A stretch of DNA of 64,000 bases, from the NCBI GenBank assembly GCA_965205855.1, contig OZ242184.1, positions 288,001 through 352,000 of the forward strand. Direction: 5' to 3'. The stretch's first letter is position 1. Every line of letters begins with the position of its first letter. Position numbers and translations under genes: made by a program. Positions 14,119-31,874 of the stretch are shown in pieces. A model generated the notes under the pieces. It was not told where the DNA came from. It made no database searches and saw only the letters and a program-made list of their open reading frames with translations. The DNA is from Thermodesulfobacteriota bacterium (GTDB lineage Bacteria > Desulfobacterota_D > UBA1144 > Nemesobacterales > Mycalebacteriaceae).

Positions 14119-14346
14119 ATGAATGATTTAATACAACGCGGATTGAACGAGCATCTGATTAAGTTTGACAATAATGAAGAACCGACACGCATTACTTACA
14201 TAAATCACGATAAAACGCGCAGATACTCAAACCCTGAAGAGAAAATACAGGCGGAAACTTATATCAAGCTGGTTTTGGATTATAACTATCCGCCGGAACT
14301 TATTGACCTGTTTGTGTCTGTTACTCTTGGTTCCTCAAAAAAATGA
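14119..14346 (+). pseudogene. N-terminal fragment of an HsdR_N-type restriction(-modification) enzyme
   Basis: NPEEKIQAETYIKLVLDYNYP...VTLGSSKK resembles the HSDR_N start; ends in an A7 run before the expected ADIV catalytic motif. Confidence 0.65.
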
Positions 14347-14790
14347 CCGAAGAGATTTTGTCTGATGCAGGGCGTTTTCGACGTGCTGGTGTCGGTGTGC
14401 ATAAAGGCGGTAAAGTGATTCATGTCGCACCACCGGCAGACCGCGTTCAATCTTTAATGAAAGATTTACTACACTGGCTTAAACGCACTGATGAGCATCC
14501 GTTAATTCGCAGTTGTGTTTTCCATTATGAATTTGAATTTATTCACCCCTTTAGCGATGGCAATGGCAGAATAGGGCGGCTTTGGCAGACGTTGATTTTG
14601 GGGCAATGGCGTCCGCTGTTTTATTCTTTGCCGATTGAAAACACCATTAAAAATAATCAGCAAGCCTACTATAATGCGCTCGCCAGTGCGGATGATAAGG
14701 CTGACAGCAGCGTGTTTATTGAATTTATGTTGGCCATTATTTTGGCCAGCATCAATGCCAGCGACCCAGCTACCGACTCAGATAACGACC
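14343..14790 (+). pseudogene. Fic-domain protein fragment, truncated at both ends
   Basis: HYEFEFIHPFSDGNGRIGR Fic motif; N-terminus missing; SDPATDSDNDPA linker repeats run directly into antisense ttcA sequence. Confidence 0.8.
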
Positions 14791-14967
14791 CAGCTCAAAA
14801 TCAATCGGTGCATGGGTTTGAAAATGCCTAAGAATATCAAACAATGACAACGAATCTTTCCCCCCTGACACCGCCAGCAATACCTTGTCGCCATTTTTAA
14901 TCATTTTAAAATCAGCAATCGCCCTGCCAACTGGTTTGGTTAATAGTTTGGGTAATTTTTTTATCAC
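14787..14967 (-). pseudogene. ttcA: 5' fragment of tRNA 2-thiocytidine synthase TtcA
   Basis: VGRAIADFKMIKNGDKVLLAVSGGKDSLSL...APIDFELG; GTG start overlaps the intI stop; similarity ends after ~60 codons. Confidence 0.85.
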
Positions 14968-15944
14968 AACTTATCCAACGGCGAAACCACGCCTTGCCCG
15001 CCTTGACGCAAAACATGGGTGTAAATCATCGTCGTTTGTAAATCACTATGCCCAAGTAAGGCTTGAATCGTACGAATATCCGTACCCGTTTGTAACAAAT
15101 GCGTGGCAAAGGAATGGCGAAAGGTGTGTGCTGAGACTTTTTTATGAATATTGCATTGTTGAACTGCGCGCTTAATTGCCTTGTTAATCACCGATTGATC
15201 CACATGATGGCGCCGTTTGATTTGCGTGCGTGGATCAGTAGCAATATTGCGACTGGAAAACACATATTGCCAATTAAAGGCTTTATCCGCACTAGGATAT
15301 TTCTTCGCCAAGGCATAAGGCAAATACACACTGCCGAAGCCATCCTTAAGGTCTTTGTTATGAATAAGTTTTATTTTTTGTAAATGATTTTTTAAAGGTT
15401 TAGTTAAACTATTTGCAAGCGGCGTCACCCGGTCTTTGCTGCCCTTGCCGTCACGCACCGTGATTTGCCTAAATTCAAAATCAATATCTTGCACTCTAAG
15501 GCGCACCACCTCAGAAATCCTCAGCCCGCCAGCGTACAAAAGTTTCACCATCAACCCGACTGTACCGTCCATTAAAGTCAATACTTGCGCTACTTCTACC
15601 TTGCTTAACACCACAGGAATGCGTGGCTCTTTACGCGAACGCGCGGCATTTACCCCTTCTAATGGTTGCTTTAAAACCTTAGTGTACAAAAACACCAACG
15701 CATTCAGTGCCTGATTTTGTGTACTCGGCGCTACTTTTTGTTGAGTAGCCAAATGTGTTAAAAATCGTTCAACTTGCTCTTCAGCATTTTTAAGTAATGC
15801 AAACCTACTTTGAATGTTTGAAAATTTAACAAATCGCCTGACCCAGTCACAATAAGTATTCTCAGTCCCATAAGCATACCCCTGCCTGCGTAACAAAGTT
15901 CGCATTTCTTCTAACAAGGTCTTTTCTTTGGGTATAATAGCCAT
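14964..15944 (-). CDS. intI: Integron integrase
   Basis: Tyrosine recombinase residues GLRISE, GKGSKDR, HTFRHSFATHLL, LGHSDLQTTMIYTH, plus the IntI-specific insertion (VYLPYALAKKYP...WQYVF...DPRT..RRHH) and VAPSTQNQALNALVFLY; divergent from the cassette array. Confidence 0.98.
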   Translation of the reverse strand: MAIIPKEKTLLEEMRTLLRRQGYAYGTENTYCDWVRRFVKFSNIQSRFALLKNAEEQVERFLTHLATQQKVAPSTQNQALNALVFLYTKVLKQPLEGVNAARSRKEPRIPVVLSKVEVAQVLTLMDGTVGLMVKLLYAGGLRISEVVRLRVQDIDFEFRQITVRDGKGSKDRVTPLANSLTKPLKNHLQKIKLIHNKDLKDGFGSVYLPYALAKKYPSADKAFNWQYVFSSRNIATDPRTQIKRRHHVDQSVINKAIKRAVQQCNIHKKVSAHTFRHSFATHLLQTGTDIRTIQALLGHSDLQTTMIYTHVLRQGGQGVVSPLDKL

Positions 15945-16069
15945 AAATATTAAAAACGTCAAATCAATTATTGACAGGTTTTTATTATAATACCCAATAT
16001 TAGGTTATTGTAGATTTTTTTGATAAAAACTGGGTAAATATGCCTGATTTTGTTTTTAATATAGTGTAT

Positions 16070-16102
16070 TAAGGCAATAATGCCTTATACTAATAGTTAT
16101 TC
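16070..16102 (+). other. Putative attI site
   Basis: GCCTTATACTAATA-GTTATTC (crossover G/TT at 16096) just before the first cassette gene, preceded by inverted repeat TAAGGCA-ATAA-TGCCTTA. Confidence 0.55.
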
Positions 16103-16131
16103 GTTTTTAACCCTTATAAAATTATGAGATC

Positions 16132-16611
16132 ATGAGAAAAATACTTTCAGTAGCCTTTTTAGCGTTGCTTATGAGCGGTTGTATTCCACAAGTAGGAATT
16201 ATGAATTCAGTTAGTAAATATGATTCATCTGCAAATTTAGTTGACCTTGGGGATTCTAAAGAAGATGTTTTATCCGTACTTTTACCGACTCAAGTGGGGT
16301 TAAGTAAACGTTACAGTAAGGCTCCTGATAAGTTTTTAATGGATGAAAAGAGAGTCGAAATATATTTCTTCAGATCATCGTGGAATTCTGATGGGCTAAC
16401 TACAGATGATGAATTTACGCCATACATTTTTATTGATGACACATTAGTAGCTATTGGTTGGTCTGCCATAGGTGGGCCAAAAACTCAGGCACAAGCGGTA
16501 CCATCTACTTCAAACCCCTCAAGTCGCAGTTCTTCAAGGGAGTCTCAGCAAATTTTAAATCATGGTGCTGGAGGGTGTACTCCAAATTTTTCAACTGGAG
16601 GTTGCCTCTAG
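16132..16611 (+). CDS. Cassette 1: DUF3192-like lipoprotein
   Basis: Lipobox LMSGC, DGLTTDDEFTPYIF...AIGW motif, C-terminal GGCTPNFSTGGCL. Confidence 0.7.
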   Translation: MRKILSVAFLALLMSGCIPQVGIMNSVSKYDSSANLVDLGDSKEDVLSVLLPTQVGLSKRYSKAPDKFLMDEKRVEIYFFRSSWNSDGLTTDDEFTPYIFIDDTLVAIGWSAIGGPKTQAQAVPSTSNPSSRSSSRESQQILNHGAGGCTPNFSTGGCL

Positions 16612-16625
16612 ATCAAGCCCTAGAA

Positions 16626-17279
16626 GCCTAATCGGGTAAAGGCGAGTATCTAGCTCGCCCTCCCCACACCACCGGACATGCGGGTCCGCATCCGGCGGTT
16701 CGTCAGTCTATCTGTTCTGAGGCTGAGAACAAAACCGAACCGTCATGAGTCGACTTGTCGTTCGTCACGACCTTGGCCTCCCAAGAGATACGATTGTCTC
16801 ACTCCTCATCTGACGTTCAGGCCTTCCTGCAAGACCATCGTCCTGATGGGCTGCAGTACTATGCCGTCTGCTGACTTCTGCCCGATCACAGACGCCATTG
16901 CTGGCACCAGCGCTATGCATTCGCATCGCATGTCGGGCAGATCTCCCCAGATAAGAGCATGAACTGTCACTGCACAACCTTGTCATTTACCCTACCACCT
17001 GAACCAAGTGGACTTCGCTATCTTGTGCTAGCTCGTCCCAGTGGCTGGGCCTTCTATGACATTTCTGTTCGTAGGCTCGCAGTTTTGCGCTCGGGCTTCC
17101 TTCAGACCACCCCTCGCGGAGTTGCCTTTGCCGTCGGCTAGTAGTTATCATTGGTTCATGAAAACACAATGTTGGTTCTCCTACAGGGGACTTTCACCCC
17201 ATAAGTTCATGCCCATGCTGGGCGTACACAAGGCACTCCAGCGGACGGCTTACGCCGCCGCTGAGTTTGGCCGTTAGAG
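16626..17279 (+). other. attC1, interrupted by a group II intron
   Basis: Removing 16631-17227 rebuilds GCCTAAC-AAGGCACTCCAGCGGACGGCTTACGCCGCCGCTGAGTTTGGCC-GTTAGAG, nearly identical to attC7. Confidence 0.92.
16631..17227 (-). mobile_element. Group IIC-attC intron lacking the RT/maturase ORF (597 nt ribozyme)
   Basis: 5' GTACGCCCAGCATGGGC; EBS1 ACAAG (17022-17026); domain V GAACCGCCGGATGCGGACCCGCATGTCCGGTGGTGTG (16665-16701); domain VI with bulged A and ...ACCCGAT end; inserted at TTGT/T on the attC bottom strand. Confidence 0.93.
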
Positions 17280-17317: not shown

Positions 17318-18544
17318 ATGGCAAACGAGAACCTTTCAAACGCCAAAAGGGCAAAGAACGACGAGTTCTATACCCAGTACGGTGATATTCAGAAAGAGAT
17401 TGAAGCATACCTGGAATACAACCCCGATGTCTTTCGTGGCAAGGTGGTTTACTGCAATTGCGATGACCCATATGAAAGCAATTTCTTTCGCTATTTCGTG
17501 CTCAATTTCAACAAACTTGGATTGAAACAGCTTATCACCACCAGCTACAAGCCTTCGCCTGTTGCCAACACACAGCTGAATTTGTTTGGCAACGATAAAT
17601 CTCTCTCAAAAACAAAAGGCCGCCCAAAAGTAACAGCCAACAAGTTCATTATCAGTGAAGCGCACGACATAGATGGCGATGGCGAGTTCAATCTAAAGGA
17701 TGTTGCCATACAGTTGAAAGCAAACAAACAAAATGAATGGACACCCCTTGAAGGTGACGGCGACTTTCGCAGCGATGAATGCATTGACCTTCTGACGCAA
17801 TCAGATATTGTCGTGACCAATCCGCCCTTTAGCTTGTATCGACAATTTGTAGCACAGCTGGTTGCCTACAAAAAACAGTTTGTGATCATTGGAAGTAAAA
17901 ACACTATTACATACAAAGAGATATTTCCTCTGATAAAAGCAAACAAAATGTGGGTGGGTACAACCAGTTTTAACAAGGATATGCTGTTTATAGCTCCTTC
18001 AAATGCCGACCTTGGCAAGAAACCCAAAACTGCGATTCGCGTAGTGGATGATGTCACATATTTACGATCACCATCTGTTTGGTTTACCAACCTTGATCAT
18101 GGACGCCGTCATCAGCCATTGCCGCTCATGACGATGGAAGATAACAGAAGGTTTAACACCAAAATTCGGAAAAATGAGAACAGTTATAAGCAGTATGATA
18201 ACTATGAGGGAATAGAGATTCCCTACACTAATGCTATCCTGAGTGATTATGATGGAGTGATGGGAGTGCCCATCAGTTTTCTGGACAAATATTGTCCGGA
18301 ACAGTTTGAAATTTTAGGCGCAACTCAAAGAGGTTGCCACGATGAAGTCCCCGATACAAAAAAATACGACGATTACTGGGAAGTAAGACCGGATGGTACC
18401 AAAACAGGATCGCGCGGCGGGAAAACAAATGAGAATGCCAATTTGGTTGGTAATGATGGGAAGAAGAATTACTTCATTAATGCCAAAGGTAGAATAATTC
18501 AATCCGCCTATCAAAGACTTTTTATTAGGCATAGGAAAGGATAG
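17318..18544 (+). CDS. Cassette 2: EcoRI-family adenine-specific DNA methyltransferase
   Basis: [43 protein letters not shown]. Confidence 0.9.
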
Positions 18545-18545
18545 C

Positions 18546-19715
18546 ATGAAAACAACTCTAGAAACCGACATCACTGTCAAAGAAATTTCCGATGGGTTCG
18601 TCTATAACGAACTCGAAGGGAAAGGACTTTTCGGCCTGTCAGGCAAACTCACGATTCAGCCGGATTATCAGCGTAATTACATCTACGCTTCTGATGGTGG
18701 AAAGAGAGAGATTGCGGTTATTGATTCGATACTCAAAGGCTACCCGATTGGCTTGATTTATTTTAACAAGGTCTCTGAATACAATCTGGAGGTGCTGGAC
18801 GGGCAGCAGCGAATCACCAGTGTGGGACGTTTTGTAACCGACAAATTTGCCATCAAAGACGGCAATGGCATGGAGCAGTACTTCAGCGGAATGGCAAAGG
18901 ACAAGAAGTCCAAGATACTGGGTACCAAGTTGCTCATTTATGAATGCGAAGGATCAGAAAGCGAAATCAAAGAATGGTTTAAGACAATTAATATCGCTGG
19001 AGTCCCACTCAATAATCAAGAGTTGCTAAATGCCGTTTATTCGGGCCCATTTGTGACGCTCGGTAAAGAGGAATTTAGCAATAGCCAGAACGCCAACATC
19101 CAAAAATGGAGCGCGTATATAAAAGGTAATGCTAATCGGCAGAATTTCTTAGAACGTGCGTTGGACTGGGTAAGCAAGGGCAATATCGGCGACTATATGA
19201 GCAGTCATCGCTTTGACAAAAACATCAATGAATTAAAAGTATATTTCAACAGCGTTATCGACTGGGTTTCTAGTGTGTTTACTGATGTTGAAAGTGAGAT
19301 GTGCGGGCTTGAGTGGGGGCGCATGTACGAAAAGTATCACACAAAAGCGTTTAGTCCCGCAAAAGTATCAGCCGAAGTACAGAAGCTTTACGGCGATCCA
19401 TATGTGAACAACCGAAAGGGCATTTTTGAGTATGTCCTTGGCGGATCAACAGACACAAAGTTACTGAATGTTCGAGTTTTCGATGAAGCAACAAAGAAGT
19501 CTGTTCATGCATCTCAAACTAAAAACTCCAAAGCGAAAGATGAATCAAACTGCCCCCTTTGCGCCATTGGACATGATGCCAACAAGAGCAAACTCTGGAA
19601 GTTTGTTGAAATGGATGCTGACCATGTAACCGCATGGAGCAAAGGTGGCGCTACAATTAAAGAGAACTGCGAAATGCTATGCAAAACTCATAATAGAGCA
19701 AAAGGCAATCGATAA
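18546..19715 (+). CDS. Cassette 2: DUF262 (GmrS-like) plus HNH endonuclease
   Basis: [33 protein letters not shown]; C-terminal CPLC...MDADHV...[14 protein letters not shown]. Confidence 0.9.
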
Positions 19716-20835: not shown

Positions 20836-21828
20836 TCCAAGTCGCATAGTCAACGAAATCATAAATGCCATTCATCAGTCTGGTGGAGTAGCAGCGTATG
20901 TATCTGAATCTACAAGAACTCACCCGCGAAAATTCATAATAAGTTATATGGGAAACACATACAGCCTATGGGTATATGTATGGACACTTACTCACGGAGG
21001 TCGAGCTTCTCTTCCAGATGAATATAGAATACAAATGACCTCGGTAACATCACCACTGCCAAAAAATCCAAATGGGTTAACAGTTTTAATGGGTTATCAT
21101 CCTGATTTAAGAATGCTCGCTGGATTTGATTTAGAAAAACACAGCACCTTTGCAACAGGGTCACCGTCAGTACAAATTAACATATCTGCAATTCATGCTG
21201 CTTTACAAAATGGCTTATCATTCTTCACAAAAGAAAATGATGAAATAGCTATTGGTGTGAGGGCAGATCAATTTCTAAGTTATTCTCTAAATGCTGCTTC
21301 ACTCCATTTGTACGGTGCGGAAAGCCAATTGACAGATATGCTTACAAAAGCAGTAGAATTACAAGAAATACCTGAGCAAGATATTTCGAGTCTTGCCGCA
21401 GACCGTAAACAAATTGTGGAAAATGTAAGTAGGTATTCCCGTGATGCTAATTTTAGAAAATTAGTAATGGGGCTTATGATAATCGGTGTGCGGTAACACG
21501 AACACAGTTACGTTTGGTGGATGCCGCACATATCTTACCTGTGCCATCAGGTGATAGTAGTGATCATGTAACAAACGGAATGGCTTTATCACCCACATTT
21601 CATCGAGCATATGATAACTGTCTTATTTACTTAGATGAAAATTTTGTGATGAAACTTAACGAACAAAAAGCCGAAGAATTAAGAGCAAATAATTTAGATG
21701 GTGGACTTCAGCAGTTCTGTTCATTTCTTGATAAGAAAATACATCTTCCAATTGACGTTAATCAACGGCCAAGAATTGAATATATTAAAATGGCAAATGA
21801 GCATCGTAGAATACCAGGGTATGTATAA
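20816..21828 (+). pseudogene. Cassette 3: HNH restriction endonuclease, frameshifted
   Basis: One added base in GGGG (21469-21472) gives RDANFRKLVMGAYDNRCAVT...DAAHILP...NGMALSPTFHRAYD, joining ORFs 20816 and 21514. Confidence 0.85.
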
Positions 21829-21834
21829 TAAAAC

Positions 21835-21892
21835 GGCTAACAAAAAAATCCAGCGGACGCAAGAAGCCGCGCCGCTGATTTAGACGTTAGCT
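21835..21892 (+). other. attC3
   Basis: ACGGCTAAC complements the cassette start GTTAGCCGT; ATCCAGCGG...CCGCTGAT arms; ends GTTAGCT. Confidence 0.93.
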
Positions 21893-21912
21893 GAAAAAAA
21901 CAAGGAGCACCT

Positions 21913-23133
21913 ATGAGTGAATGGTGGTACACAGAAAAGAGCAAAAAGATTGGGCAAATCCAACAAGAAGAGCTTTCAAAGCTATTTCAAAATGGAAAAA
22001 TCACTCCGAATACTATGGTGTGGCAGGAAGGAATGCCGGAATGGAAGCCTCTCGGCAATGTAGAAGCGCTTGAGTCTCTAAAGGCAACTCTTCCGCCGCC
22101 ACTCCCCCCGAAGTCTGAACCTGATGTGCTGAGTTTTCCGTTGGCTAATAGATGGCCACGGTTCTTTGCTCGAATATTTGATGTGTGGTGGTAGGTTTTG
22201 GCTGTTTCCCTCGTCGCAGGTTATACGCTCGGTACTTACTCTGCAGGATTTGTTGAATGGATTAATGGTCCTGGGGCAAGTCAACTATTTGGAATTGCGT
22301 GTTTACCTGTGGCGTTAATGCTCGATGCTTTGATCTACAAGGCCGCAGGTAATACGCCTGGAAAAGCAATACTTGGCCTAAAGGTTACAACTCTAAATGG
22401 ACAACCATTAAGCCTCGGGCAATATCTTGGCCGCAATTTGTCTTTATGGGTGAGTGGTCTTGCATTTGGCCTTCCGCTGATAAATCTTTTTACTCTTGCA
22501 AATCAATCAAGCCGCCTTGGTAAAGGAAAACAAGCAAGCTACGATGAGCCAACAGGATATAGGGTTCATGCGAAGCCATCAGGATGGATCAGAATAACTA
22601 TTTTTTCCTTAGCGTTCATTTCTCTATTTTTCGTTATGGCTGTTCTCAACAGCATGGAGCAAGCTGCTCAACGGGATGCGATACTAAATTACAGCCAGAA
22701 TGATTATTCATGGGAAAACCCTGCCACGAAAATAAGTGCCGAAATAGAATCAAACTGGAAACACTCCGCCAGTAAGAATGAAGATCAGCAAGAAATATAT
22801 ATGTTCAATGAGATTGCTGACAGGGCAGTAGTTGTTTTTGCTGGGGAATACGCGCCCGGGTTTACTCTGCAGGAGTATGTTTCTGCCTTTCGAAAAAGCA
22901 CAGCCTCAAATATGAGATTCTCTGACGGCGGTCGCTTCTTCCAAAAACAGGGGGTTAATGCATGGAGTGGTTCGGGCAGTATGGTTGATAGCGGGACGAA
23001 CCGACTAACCGTAGAGATACGCCAACACGGTTCAGAATTTTGGCGAGTAGTCACAATTCAGGTAATGCCTTATGCCTATTCTGATGATCTGGTACAGACA
23101 CTTAATTCTGCACTTTGGAGTACGGTTAAGTAA
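21913..23133 (+). pseudogene. Cassette 4: GYF_2 (DUF4339) plus RDD membrane protein with an internal TAG
   Basis: TMVWQEGMPEWKP, proline linker, RWPRFFARIFD, TPGKAILGLKV; ORFs 21913 and 22198 are in frame, split by TAG 22192-22194. Confidence 0.85.
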
Positions 23134-31237: not shown

Positions 31238-31257
31238 GCTGAATTTAGACGTTATGT
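31238..31257 (+). other. attC14 remnant, right arm only
   Basis: GCTGAATTTAGAC-GTTATGT resembles the right arms of attC3 and attC11; expected R'' TCATAAC is absent. Confidence 0.75.
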
Positions 31258-31293
31258 GCTAATTTTATGCAATAGACTTCTGAGGATGAAAAA

Positions 31294-31707
31294 ATGAGAG
31301 CATTAATTTGGTTAATACTGATGACTTTGTTTGTGCCGTTGGTTTCTGCTGAAGAGATCGAAACTGCTATTGTATCCAATACCTTAGCCAAGTCGACACA
31401 TAGCTGGGATGGAAGTCAGCTTCCGTCATATCCAGATGGTCAGCCAGAAGTGACGATATTAAAAATAACAATCCCGGCCGGGGTCAAGTTACCACTTCAT
31501 CAGCACCCGTTCATTAATGCAGGAGTATTAACAAAAGGTGAGTTGACGGTAGTCACTAAAACAGGTGAGAAACTGCTCATGTCGGCAGGCGACACCATTG
31601 TTGAAGTAGTAAATAAATGGCATTTTGGTGAGAACAGTGGAAGCGTACCAGCAGAAATTATAGTGTTTTATTCTGGTATCAAAGGGCAACCAATTACAGT
31701 TAAATAG
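31294..31707 (+). CDS. Cassette 15: secreted cupin-domain protein
   Basis: SWDGSQLPSYP, LPLHQHP, GELTV, EVVNKWHFGEN. Confidence 0.88.
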   Translation: MRALIWLILMTLFVPLVSAEEIETAIVSNTLAKSTHSWDGSQLPSYPDGQPEVTILKITIPAGVKLPLHQHPFINAGVLTKGELTVVTKTGEKLLMSAGDTIVEVVNKWHFGENSGSVPAEIIVFYSGIKGQPITVK

Positions 31708-31712
31708 TTCGC

Positions 31713-31874
31713 ACATAACAAGCAATTCTAACGGCAGGCGACAATGGATATTGTCTTTGTGAGACTACGACGCTTCGTGCTCCATCTAACAAAGACAATC
31801 AACGGGAATTTTTTAAATGCGCTTACAGGTAATCCTATGTTAAAAACTCCCGTTATAGTCGGCTACCGTTATAG
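31713..31874 (+). other. attC15, long and branched, right end degenerate
   Basis: GCACATAAC complements GTTATGTGC; outer arm CTAACGGCAGGCGAC/GTCGGCTACCGTTATAG encloses two hairpins. Confidence 0.65.

What the first reader, a model, noticed from the sequence alone, without database searches (positions are those of the whole stretch)
16631..17227. Non-autonomous (RT-less) group IIC-attC intron inside the first attC
Seen: a 597-nt minus-strand element sits exactly at CTTGT/TAGGC. It retains the 5' end GTACGCCCAGCATGGGC, an EBS1 loop ACAAG complementary to the exon CTTGT, a IIC-type domain V with CGC triad, and domain VI with bulged A and AT end. Domain IV (GTCAG...CTGAC, 16702-16814) is only 113 nt. 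Established: IIC-attC introns target TTGT/T on attC bottom strands and normally encode an RT/maturase in domain IV. Inference: this is a MITE-like minimal ribozyme mobilised in trans by an RT encoded elsewhere. Its intact RNA motifs, in an array where many genes are decayed, suggest recent homing or selection.
Basis: partly seen in the sequence, partly recalled or inferred. Interest (0 to 1): 0.88.

Follow-up and report, generated by a model that had tools for sequence, protein, structure and literature searches.

The report
RT-less hitch-hiker intron in integron attC
A 597-base self-splicing-type intron that has lost its own reverse-transcriptase gene sits in the first recombination site of an integron; near-identical copies at other sites, and a near-identical full-length parent in another genome, suggest it spreads by borrowing the parent's enzyme, and this copy sits in a genome with no such enzyme.

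Summary
Window 16631-17227 (minus strand) is a complete 597-nt group IIC intron RNA, with three Rfam hits above gathering score. It has no reverse transcriptase (RT) gene. It is inserted at CTTGT|TAGGC in the R'' box of the first attC of an integron, antisense to the cassettes.

- The element is a 1253-nt deletion derivative of one particular IIC-attC intron. The deletion lies between two AACA tetranucleotides. The parent matches element nt 1-515 except at 2 positions and encodes a 437-aa RT/maturase.
- Three more copies with the same deletion (0-2 mismatches) lie in other attC contexts in another genome. One of them is inserted directly 5' of the parent.
- In public runs, contigs carrying the deletion junction have about 11 times the depth of the parent junction, and about 19 times the depth of this locus's flanks.
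- This 1.40 Mb one-contig genome has one copy, no RT, and at least four empty target-type attC sites. The copy here therefore looks stranded.
- It keeps the conserved outward promoter P1out.

ORF-less group II introns mobilised in trans, and ORF-less IIC introns (HYERs), are already known. This scan has also noted ORF-less attC introns on other DNA. This is a new member of a known kind.

The parts
16631..17227 (-). ORF-less group IIC-attC intron, 597 nt (5' GTACG ... GAT 3')
   Evidence: Boundaries were read. Three Rfam hits lie above gathering score. It is 597/597 identical to G061:C7:11292-11888.
17228..17279 (+). Main part of attC1 (rest of R'', L'', L', and R' GTTAGAG at 17273-17279). On the minus strand it is the intron's 5' exon, a hairpin followed by IBS1 CTTGT.
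   Evidence: Sequence. The 5' exon folds as a hairpin that ends 4 nt before the insertion point.
16626..16630 (+). Left half of the split R'' box (GCCTA). On the minus strand it is the start of the 3' exon (TAGGC; first T = IBS3).
   Evidence: The consensus TTGT/T in R'' is quoted in passages of PMC7923331.
17017..17032 (-). Domain I hairpin whose loop carries EBS1 (ACAAG)
   Evidence: It gives 5 Watson-Crick pairs with CTTGT here. With the TTTGT exons of the G061 copies it gives 4 pairs plus one G-U.
17122..17151 (+). Outward-facing promoter-like site TTGCCT-18 nt-TATCAT = intron nt 77-106, pointing at cassette 2
   Evidence: It has the same position and near-identical hexamers as P1out in Table 3 of PMC3001079, for example TTGCCC-18-TATCAT at 77-106.
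16702..16814 (-). Domain IV remnant, 113 nt. Nt 414-515 come from the parent's 5' domain IV and nt 516-526 from its 3' end.
16703..16768 (-). Vestigial 21-codon ORF. It has the parent's GGAGG ribosome-binding site, its GTG start and its first 19 codons (with one substitution), then 2 out-of-frame codons and TGA.
16713..16716 (-). Deletion junction: the AACA microhomology (intron nt 512-515) shared by both breakpoints of the parent
   Evidence: The parent's 5' side matches through nt 515. A run contig carrying the parent's 3' side matches from nt 512 onward (loose end at 16716). Read by eye, that loose end encodes the last residues of P0002.
16669..16698 (-). Domain V (CGC triad)
16631..16665 (-). 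Domain VI
14964..15962 (-). Integron integrase gene intI, divergent from the cassettes
   Evidence: TIGR02249, 428.5 bits, cut-off 265.
16132..16611 (+). ORF of cassette 1, now separated from most of its attC by the intron
   Evidence: It has no NCBIfam match.

Best explanation
The element is a non-autonomous deletion derivative of one specific group IIC-attC intron.

Origin (shown apart from the arithmetic). A 1253-nt deletion between two AACA tetranucleotides removed codons 20-435 of the parent's 437-aa RT/maturase. The size is calculated from the protein length. The deletion left the whole ribozyme, the 5' 102 nt of domain IV (ribosome-binding site, GTG start, first 19 codons) and the last 11 nt of domain IV.

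Spread (inferred). The deleted RNA is still recognised by the parent's protein supplied in trans, or by a related intron's protein. It then reverse-splices into the bottom strand of attC hairpins after YTTGT and is copied into DNA. Because class C introns read mainly the 5' exon, new copies also land at the junction between a 5' exon and a resident intron. This builds head-to-tail arrays.

This copy (inferred). It has no RT available in its genome. Either it came in with horizontally acquired integron DNA, or it homed before a helper intron was lost. It is now immobile. It splits R'' of attC1. It also still carries the lineage's outward promoter P1out, facing cassette 2.
For: The ribozyme is complete, and the site and orientation are typical of IIC-attC introns (target consensus and orientation from passages of PMC7923331 and PMC3001079).

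Four copies share the same breakpoint in four different contexts:
- Window: ...GCCTTGT| |TAGGC.
- G061 C7: ...GCGTTTGT| |TAGGT, 597/597 identical. Identity to the window stops 4 nt outside each intron end.
- G061 C14 at 21605-22201: 2 mismatches, with an attC on the 5' side and the parent immediately 3'.
- G061 C14 at 15917-16513: 1 mismatch, immediately 3' of a different RT-encoding intron and followed by TAGAAC.

The parent is identified:
- The parent at C14:22202 onward equals element nt 1-515 except nt 101 and nt 502, then continues into an RT ORF.
- Its full-length protein P0002 (437 aa, 99% identical over 356 aa) scores 408.5 bits on TIGR04416 (cut-off 300). It heads a cluster of 14 members on contigs up to 3.18 Mb.
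- P0002 ends ...HYPNR, which fits AAC AGA TAG at element nt 512-520.
- A run contig in X1 joins the parent's 3' coding end to the element at nt 512.

Run contigs show the deleted form is the commoner one:
- X4: the deletion-junction contig has depth 115.3 and the parent-junction contig 10.5.
- X1: the unitigs holding the deletion junction have depth 22,258, against 1,198 and 1,169 for the two flanks.
- X5: a 627-letter contig equals 597 + 30, i.e. a closed head-to-tail cycle, at depth 93.8 against 32.4 for the 5'-exon flank.

The own genome offers no helper: one copy, one RF00029 hit, 0 RVT_1 matches and 0 GIIM matches at E<=1.

Precedent: the 17 ORF-less TeI3 introns of T. elongatus share one deletion and were mobilised in trans in assays (passages of PMC2882425).
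Against: - No splicing, RNA or mobility was observed.
- In the window's own genome the element is single copy and no helper was found. The claim of trans mobilisation rests entirely on other genomes and on run contigs.
- The three other assembled copies lie on two 23-kb contigs of one MAG (G061), whose binning I cannot check. Those contigs share attC types and about 95%-identical cassette pieces with the window. 'Two genomes' may therefore be one community or gene pool, and the number of independent events is small (four contexts).
- The parent was never seen in one piece. Its assembled copy is cut by a contig end. Its 3' junction is known only from a 30-letter loose end that I translated by eye.
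- Contig depths sum all organisms in a run, so they are not copy numbers per genome.
- One copy (C14:21605-22201) has G555A, which breaks a domain V pair. Some copies may already be decaying.
- A plasmid missing from the one-contig assembly could carry an RT.
Confidence: 0.78

Rival explanations
1. Static relic. A full-length intron homed into attC1 of this integron and then lost its ORF in place. The element never moved afterwards.
For: It is single copy in the own genome and no RT is present. Bacterial intron fragments and inactivated copies are common (passage of PMC3245105).
Against: The same breakpoint, with 0-2 mismatches, occurs in three other contexts with different exons. The deletion-junction contigs far exceed this locus's flanks in depth.
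Confidence: 0.03
2. The copies were spread at the DNA level, with no RNA intermediate. Candidate routes are integrase-mediated cassette shuffling, homologous recombination or gene conversion between intron copies, or tandem duplication.
For: The copies lie in arrays with closely similar attC sites and shared cassette pieces at 91-98% identity. Head-to-tail repeats can also arise by unequal recombination. Conversion of a full-length copy by a deleted one would give the same breakpoint.
Against: Identity between the window and C7 copies ends 4 nt outside each intron end, which is the shared target motif. The 5' exons all end in YTTGT, which pairs with the ACAAG loop, and where a 3' exon is present it starts with T. 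The ORF-less-then-parent order at C14:21605-23729 matches the 5'-exon-driven targeting of class C introns.
Confidence: 0.1
3. The RNA is kept for a function of its own. It might act as a HYER-like protein-free hydrolytic ribozyme, or as a host-useful insert that supplies the P1out promoter to cassette 2 and locks cassettes 1 and 2 together by splitting attC1.
For: ORF-less IIC introns that cleave DNA and RNA are described as HYERs (citing passages in 10.1101/2024.08.31.610620 and PMC12990946). No RT is present here. P1out-type hexamers are intact at intron nt 77-106, and promoters of this type drove a reporter gene in E. coli (PMC3001079, section 14). R'' is split.
Against: The copy is 100% identical to a copy elsewhere, so there has been no time for selection to show. 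P1out and the ribozyme are simply inherited from the parent. A near-identical RT-bearing parent co-occurs with the other copies. No activity was tested.
Confidence: 0.08

Closest known systems
Group IIC-attC introns (S.ma.I2, E.c.I7, Kl.pn.I1 and relatives; PMC3001079, PMC7923331)
   Same: It has the class C ribozyme layout. It is inserted in the attC bottom strand at TTGT/T inside R'', antisense to the cassettes, and in the first attC as for S.ma.I2. It has a P1out-type promoter at nt 77-106. DNA identity to class 1 integron introns is 74% over nt 1-303. The parent's protein is 56% identical to such an intron's LtrA.
   Different: It has no intron-encoded protein. The IIC-attC introns in the passages I read are analysed as full-length, RT-encoding elements or as truncated fragments.
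TeI3 ORF-less introns of Thermosynechococcus elongatus (Mohr et al. 2010, PMC2882425)
   Same: A single ORF deletion in domain IV has the same breakpoints in all copies. N- and C-terminal ORF remnants are kept. ORF-less copies outnumber ORF-containing ones. [quoted passage not shown]
   Different: The intron class and target type differ (attC hairpins here). Here the helper is absent from the genome that holds this copy. Mobility was shown by assay there and is only inferred here.
HYERs, ORF-less group IIC introns (Liu et al., Science 2024; paper not held, known from citing passages, plus my recall of its abstract)
   Same: Both are compact IIC ribozymes of about 600 nt without a protein gene. 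HYER1 is 637 nt in the table of PMC12990946. Multi-copy families occur: a Verrucomicrobiae MAG found here has 7 full copies.
   Different: This element has a near-identical RT-bearing parent and an obvious deletion scar. Hydrolytic DNA cleavage was not tested. It is single copy in its own genome.
C.te.I1 of Clostridium tetani (as described in PMC4424553)
   Same: It is an ORF-less bacterial group II intron in a genome with no intron-protein gene. The review calls C.te.I1 the sole known exception to the rule that a related protein-encoding intron is present.
   Different: Per the titles and abstracts listed, C.te.I1 sits in a surface-layer protein gene and is spliced. This element is antisense in an attC, with no gene to restore.

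Membership tests
Group II intron, structural class C | Domains V and VI with a catalytic triad and a branch-site helix | tested here: met
   RF00029 scores 45.0 bits (gathering score 40) at 16700-16631. CGC sits in the triad position of the alignment.
Group II intron, structural class C | Domains I-IV of the type found in IIC introns | tested here: met
   RF02001 scores 132.2 bits and RF01998 65.1 bits. The same pair of models hits the RT-encoding attC introns L004-L006.
Group II intron, structural class C | Insertion just after a hairpin, with only a short IBS1 and no IBS2 | tested here: met
   The 5' exon folds as a hairpin ending 4 nt before the site. The 5-nt CTTGT is complementary to the ACAAG loop.
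Group IIC-attC lineage | Insertion in the attC bottom strand at TTGT/T within R'', antisense to the cassettes | tested here: met
   The consensus is quoted in PMC7923331.
Group IIC-attC lineage | Intron-encoded protein falls in the monophyletic IIC-attC clade | tested here: inconclusive
   The element has no protein. The parent's protein P0002 is 56% identical to the LtrA of a class 1 integron attC intron and passes TIGR04416. No tree with non-attC class C proteins was built.
Trans-mobilised ORF-less derivative (TeI3-like) | All copies share one deletion breakpoint and keep ORF remnants | tested here: met
   4 of 4 assembled copies share it. The remnants are described.
Trans-mobilised ORF-less derivative (TeI3-like) | Copies lie at different sites that pair with EBS1 | tested here: met
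   There are four contexts. The three with an exon 5' flank end in CTTGT or TTTGT.
Trans-mobilised ORF-less derivative (TeI3-like) | A closely related protein-encoding intron is present in the same genome | tested here: not met
   Own genome: 0 RVT_1 and 0 GIIM matches in 1.40 Mb, at 98% completeness. The feature is met in G061, where the parent and a second RT intron share a contig with two copies.
Trans-mobilised ORF-less derivative (TeI3-like) | Mobility when the protein is supplied in trans | not testable with these tools
   This needs a homing assay.
HYER | Group IIC intron without a protein-coding region | tested here: met
HYER | Sequence-specific hydrolytic cleavage of DNA/RNA by the RNA alone | not testable with these tools
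   This is a biochemical assay.

The most novel reading that the evidence does not exclude
The deleted form may be a successful hyperparasite of IIC-attC introns, not merely a passenger. On this reading it outnumbers its parent by ten-fold or more in natural communities and stacks into head-to-tail arrays at attC sites. It travels with integron DNA into genomes that never held a helper, such as this 1.4 Mb RT-free genome. It may also be driven by divergent helper proteins, such as the 55%-identical protein of the neighbouring intron in G061, or persist through protein-free activity. If so, attC arrays would be a general habitat for RT-less ribozyme parasites across phyla. The pattern scan also found 7 full copies in a Verrucomicrobiae MAG whose nearest RT-bearing relatives are only about 75% identical.
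Probability: 0.3. Interest if true: 0.6.

Novelty: new member of a known kind. Interest (0 to 1): 0.45.

Why it matters
Reviews of bacterial group II introns call ORF-less forms rare and say they almost always live beside a related protein-encoding intron (passages of PMC4424553 and PMC3245105). This case is unusually well resolved. The parent, both deletion breakpoints, sister copies and the order of insertion in tandem arrays can all be read from sequence.

It also shows the deleted form reaching a small genome with no reverse transcriptase. One narrow pattern scan found 57 protein-less class C introns in 55 stretches of public DNA. Many of them lie at TTGT|T after hairpins. Integron attC arrays therefore seem to hold many such elements that gene-based annotation misses.

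In practice, an intron here splits attC1 and brings a promoter facing the next cassette. That may change which cassettes can be excised and expressed.

Tried and rejected
Searches and steps that led nowhere:
- Close kin. The element was not found in the 5 same-genus genomes. Among the 60 relatives searched, 1 had a match (G042), and that was a weak partial one at 72% over 123 nt.
- Plasmids. 364 plasmid records matched, but 0 covered 80% or more of the query. All the best hits are RT-encoding relatives. The E. coli genome set gave 19 records, all plasmid introns at 80% identity or less.
- Viral contigs. An exact 30-nt deletion-junction string gave 0 matches.
G061 holds no contig with the parent's 3' part. 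The own class holds no close homologue of P0002: 2 of 120 genomes matched at E<=1e-120, at 50-59% identity. The 3' breakpoint therefore rests on the protein's C-terminus and one loose end.
- Expression. I have no evidence on transcription or splicing.
- Junction bridging. In X1 the flank contigs reach only 21 and 10 letters into the intron, below the tool's own criterion of 31 letters. I do not count them as independent proof of the two junctions.
- Possible empty site. Two X1 contigs join the attC1 main part to a different left flank ending in ...CCTA. This is a possible intron-free relative of the site, but only a weak hint.
- attC finding. My first attC finder was too strict and found 1 site. 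The relaxed one listed 17 sites, several of which lie inside ordinary genes. I use only the four array sites that show TTGT|TAG on the bottom strand: 23560, 24053, 24763 and 29285.
- Intron ends of the pattern hits. My end-finder found both ends in only 18 of 57 hits. Three of those 5' ends are false motif hits.
- Tree. I considered building a tree to count independent ORF losses. I dropped the idea because I held too few full-length relatives.

Papers:
- Not held: Simon et al. 2008 and the two Leon & Roy 2009 papers. Liu et al. 2024 is also not held.
- Supplementary files were not opened. The HYER paper's lists of loci could already include this family.
- Searches for prior description of ORF-less attC introns: 'group II intron'+'attC'+'ORF-less' gave 7 papers. 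'IIC-attC' gave 8. 'group II intron'+'non-autonomous'+'integron' gave 3. 'HYER'+'integron' gave 1, which is irrelevant. None of the listings or passages I read describes one.
Full report
WHAT IS THERE.

Read on the minus strand, the window shows an attC hairpin ending in CTTGT. After it come 597 nt that begin GTACGCCCAGCATGGGC and end TTTACCCGAT, and then TAGGC.

Rfam cmscan of all 64 kb gave only three hits at or above gathering score. All three lie inside these 597 nt, on the minus strand and in the right order:
- RF02001, 132.2 bits.
- RF01998, 65.1 bits.
- RF00029 (domains V-VI), 45.0 bits.
Three RT-encoding relatives score 118.8-132.1, 54.5-67.8 and 48.6-48.8 bits on the same models. The ribozyme therefore shows no sign of decay.

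Other features:
- Domain IV is 113 nt (16702-16814).
- The longest ORF touching the element is 94 aa.
- The hairpin at nt 196-211 carries ACAAG in its loop, complementary to the exon's CTTGT.
- The fold is more stable than shuffled sequence, z = -4.3.

The surroundings are an integron. A 332-aa ORF at 14964-15962(-) scores 428.5 bits on the integron-integrase model TIGR02249 (cut-off 265). The cassette ORFs run on the + strand. With the intron removed, the split site folds on its bottom strand as a single attC-type hairpin. The insertion point lies inside R''. It matches the TTGT/T consensus, and the antisense orientation matches that described for group IIC-attC introns (passages of PMC7923331 and PMC3001079).

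THE OWN GENOME.

The window lies in a 1,401,274-bp one-contig genome rated 98% complete.
- The element occurs once. RF00029 hits only that place.
- RVT_1 gave 0 matches; its control rang in 3 of 14 known genomes. The maturase domain GIIM gave 0 matches at E<=1.
- The element was not found in the 5 same-genus genomes searched. The integrase was not found in them either. It was found at 50-55% identity in 4 of 95 other genomes of the order.
- GC content falls from about 0.52-0.55 to about 0.41-0.47 where the island begins.
- At least four other attC-like sites of the array carry TTGT|TAG on the bottom strand and are empty.

This genome therefore offers targets but no enzyme.

RELATIVES AND THE PARENT.

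In plasmids the best matches are introns of about 1.92 kb that carry an RT gene:
- Thiothrix subterranea, 81% identity over nt 1-291.
- Ca. Methylocalor, 79%.
- Class 1 integron introns lying between resistance cassettes, 74%.

I then scanned public DNA with a gapped pattern. It joins the conserved end of domain III to domain V and allows only 98-128 nt between them. In the window it matched once, with 0 of 100 shuffles matching. It found 15 stretches in genome contigs and 40 in metagenome contigs, 57 matches in all.

Three of the 57 matches are this very element, in a MAG (G061). A whole-genome search of G061 then gave three copies:
- C7:11292-11888, 597/597 identical.
- C14:15917-16513, 1 mismatch.
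- C14:21605-22201, 2 mismatches.

The flanks differ from the window's. Identity between the window and the C7 copy stops 4 nt outside each end, which is just the shared target motif.

Directly 3' of the third copy, at C14:22202, starts an intron that equals the element over nt 1-515 except at nt 101 and nt 502. It then continues into an RT reading frame until the contig ends.

The full-length protein was found by protein search. P0002 is 437 aa and 99% identical over the 356 residues available. It scores 408.5 bits on TIGR04416 (cut-off 300). Its 90% cluster has 14 members on contigs up to 3.18 Mb.

P0002 starts at the GTG at element nt 460, 8 nt after GGAGG. It ends ...HYPNR, which fits AAC AGA TAG at element nt 512-520. 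A contig in run X1 matches the window up to 16716 (nt 512). Read by eye on the other strand, it then continues with the codons for the residues just before that NR.

Both breakpoints therefore carry AACA. From the protein length, the deletion is 1253 nt and the parent about 1850 nt (my arithmetic). What remains in domain IV is a 21-codon vestigial ORF (16703-16768).

EVIDENCE THAT THE DELETED FORM SPREAD.

- Four copies share one breakpoint in four contexts.
- The three 5' exons that are attC sequence end in CTTGT or TTTGT. These pair with ACAAG, with one G-U pair in the latter. The 3' exons start TAGGC, TAGGT or TAGAAC.
- Two copies are in tandem with other introns.
  - At C14:21605 the order is attC, ORF-less copy, parent.
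  - At C14:12796-16513 the order is attC, a different RT intron, ORF-less copy, then TAGAAC. That other intron has a 444-aa protein 55% identical to P0002. Its domain I is interrupted by a transposase gene with a DDE_3 domain.
- Class C introns read mainly the 5' exon. The upstream member of each pair is therefore most simply the later arrival. On that logic the ORF-less form inserted after the parent at the first site. This ordering is inference.
- Table 3 of PMC3001079 also lists a Shewanella intron whose 5' exon is a 'second group II intron'. Adjacent attC introns therefore have a precedent.

Run contigs add quantity.
- In X4 a 155-letter contig bridges the deletion junction at depth 115.3. 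A 1146-letter contig leaves it into the parent's ORF at depth 10.5.
- In X1 the unitigs that hold the deletion junction have depth 22,258, against 1,198 and 1,169 for the two flanks.
- In X5 a 627-letter contig is the 597-nt element plus its first 30 letters again. That is a closed head-to-tail cycle, at depth 93.8 against 32.4 for the 5'-exon flank.

These depths sum everything in a sample and are not copy numbers per genome. They do show more copies of the deleted form than of this locus, and more than of the parent.

WHAT IT PROBABLY DOES HERE.

Nothing mobile, for lack of an enzyme. Two side effects are likely.
- R'' of attC1 is split by 597 nt. The first two cassettes may therefore no longer be separable at that site (inference).
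- The + strand at 17122-17151 reads TTGCCT-18 nt-TATCAT. This is intron nt 77-106, exactly where PMC3001079 places P1out. Examples there are TTGCCC-18-TATCAT at 77-106 and TTGCCC-18-TATACT at 77-106. The second of these is one of the promoters that conferred reporter activity in E. coli (section 14).
Whether it fires in this host is untested.

CONTEXT AND NOVELTY.

- The TeI3 introns of T. elongatus are the textbook case of one ORF deletion followed by proliferation with a helper protein (passages of PMC2882425).
- Reviews call bacterial ORF-less introns rare and name C.te.I1 as the only one without a helper in its genome (PMC4424553).
- ORF-less IIC introns were described in 2024 as HYERs. 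That paper is not held. I saw only citing passages and recall its abstract.

The pattern scan shows that protein-less class C introns are common.
- The 58 domain IV sequences, counting the window's, fall into 46 distinct sequences. These form several conserved clades, many of which keep a GGAGG-plus-start remnant.
- 14 further loci were scanned with Rfam. In 10 of them RF02001, RF01998 and RF00029 all hit within about 600-700 nt. The other four lacked one or two of the three models (L010, L011, L019, L054).
- Where my crude end-finder found both ends (18 of 57), 14 had a 5' exon ending in TTGT and 16 had a 3' exon starting with T. Three of the 18 are false 5' hits.
- A Verrucomicrobiae MAG holds 7 full copies at 99-100% identity, one copy covering nt 1-547, and fragments. 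Its nearest RT-linked relatives are only about 75% identical.

Earlier notes of this scan list ORF-less IIC introns in attC sites on other DNA: 77 notes in at least 67 genomes. Those notes are unchecked, and I did not rely on them.

In the library I found no paper that describes an ORF-less IIC-attC intron. The HYER paper and its supplements, which I could not read, may cover some.

I therefore class this as a new member of a known kind. It is well resolved, and the absence of any helper in the host genome is the unusual part.

LIMITS.

- No RNA or activity data are available.
- The sister copies come from two short contigs of one MAG, and possibly from the same gene pool as the window.
- The parent's 3' end is known only from a protein C-terminus and a 30-letter loose end.
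- An unassembled plasmid could hold an RT.

Noticed in passing
L008, L014, L015, L017, L018, L021 (genome G062, MAG labelled Verrucomicrobiae): A second ORF-less attC-type IIC intron family of about 601 nt. It has 7 full copies at 99-100% identity, one copy covering nt 1-547, and fragments. Each aligned copy lies after a different hairpin ending in TTGT and is followed by T. The nearest RT-linked introns in that MAG are only about 75% identical in domain I.
   Followed up: partly
L008-L062: The 57 pattern hits plus the window give 46 distinct short domain IV sequences in several conserved clades. Many keep a GGAGG-plus-start-codon remnant. This suggests long-lived or repeatedly arising protein-less lineages.
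   Followed up: partly
L036 and L038 (3' ends of the pattern hits): Two more metagenome contigs where an ORF-less intron's 3' end runs straight into what looks like another intron's 5' end, i.e. tandem introns.
   Followed up: no
L082:796-3916 (G061 C14:12796-15916): A full-length IIC-attC intron with an intact 444-aa RT/maturase. Its domain I is interrupted by a gene of about 1.1 kb for a DDE_3 transposase on the other strand.
   Followed up: partly
G061 C14:21605-22201, intron nt 555: This copy carries G555A, which breaks a base pair in the 3' strand of domain V. The copy at C14:15917 has C554T, which keeps a G-U pair.
   Followed up: no
window 12000-33000 and 14964-15962: The integron island has lower GC than the flanking DNA. 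Its integrase was not found in any of the 5 same-genus genomes. Both fit horizontal acquisition of the whole island.
   Followed up: partly
window 14333-14816 and 31252-31871: Pieces of the window are 91-95% identical to parts of the G061 contigs: the Fic-like ORF next to intI, and cassette DNA near 31.3-31.9 kb. The arrays therefore draw on a shared cassette pool.
   Followed up: no
L082:6949-8405 (G061 C14): An EcoRV-family endonuclease gene (254 bits) lies next to a D12-class adenine methyltransferase gene (171 bits) in the same array as the intron copies.
   Followed up: no
window 17318-19715: Cassette 2, directly downstream of the intron's outward promoter, holds two adjoining ORFs of 408 and 389 aa. 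The first has no NCBIfam match.
   Followed up: no
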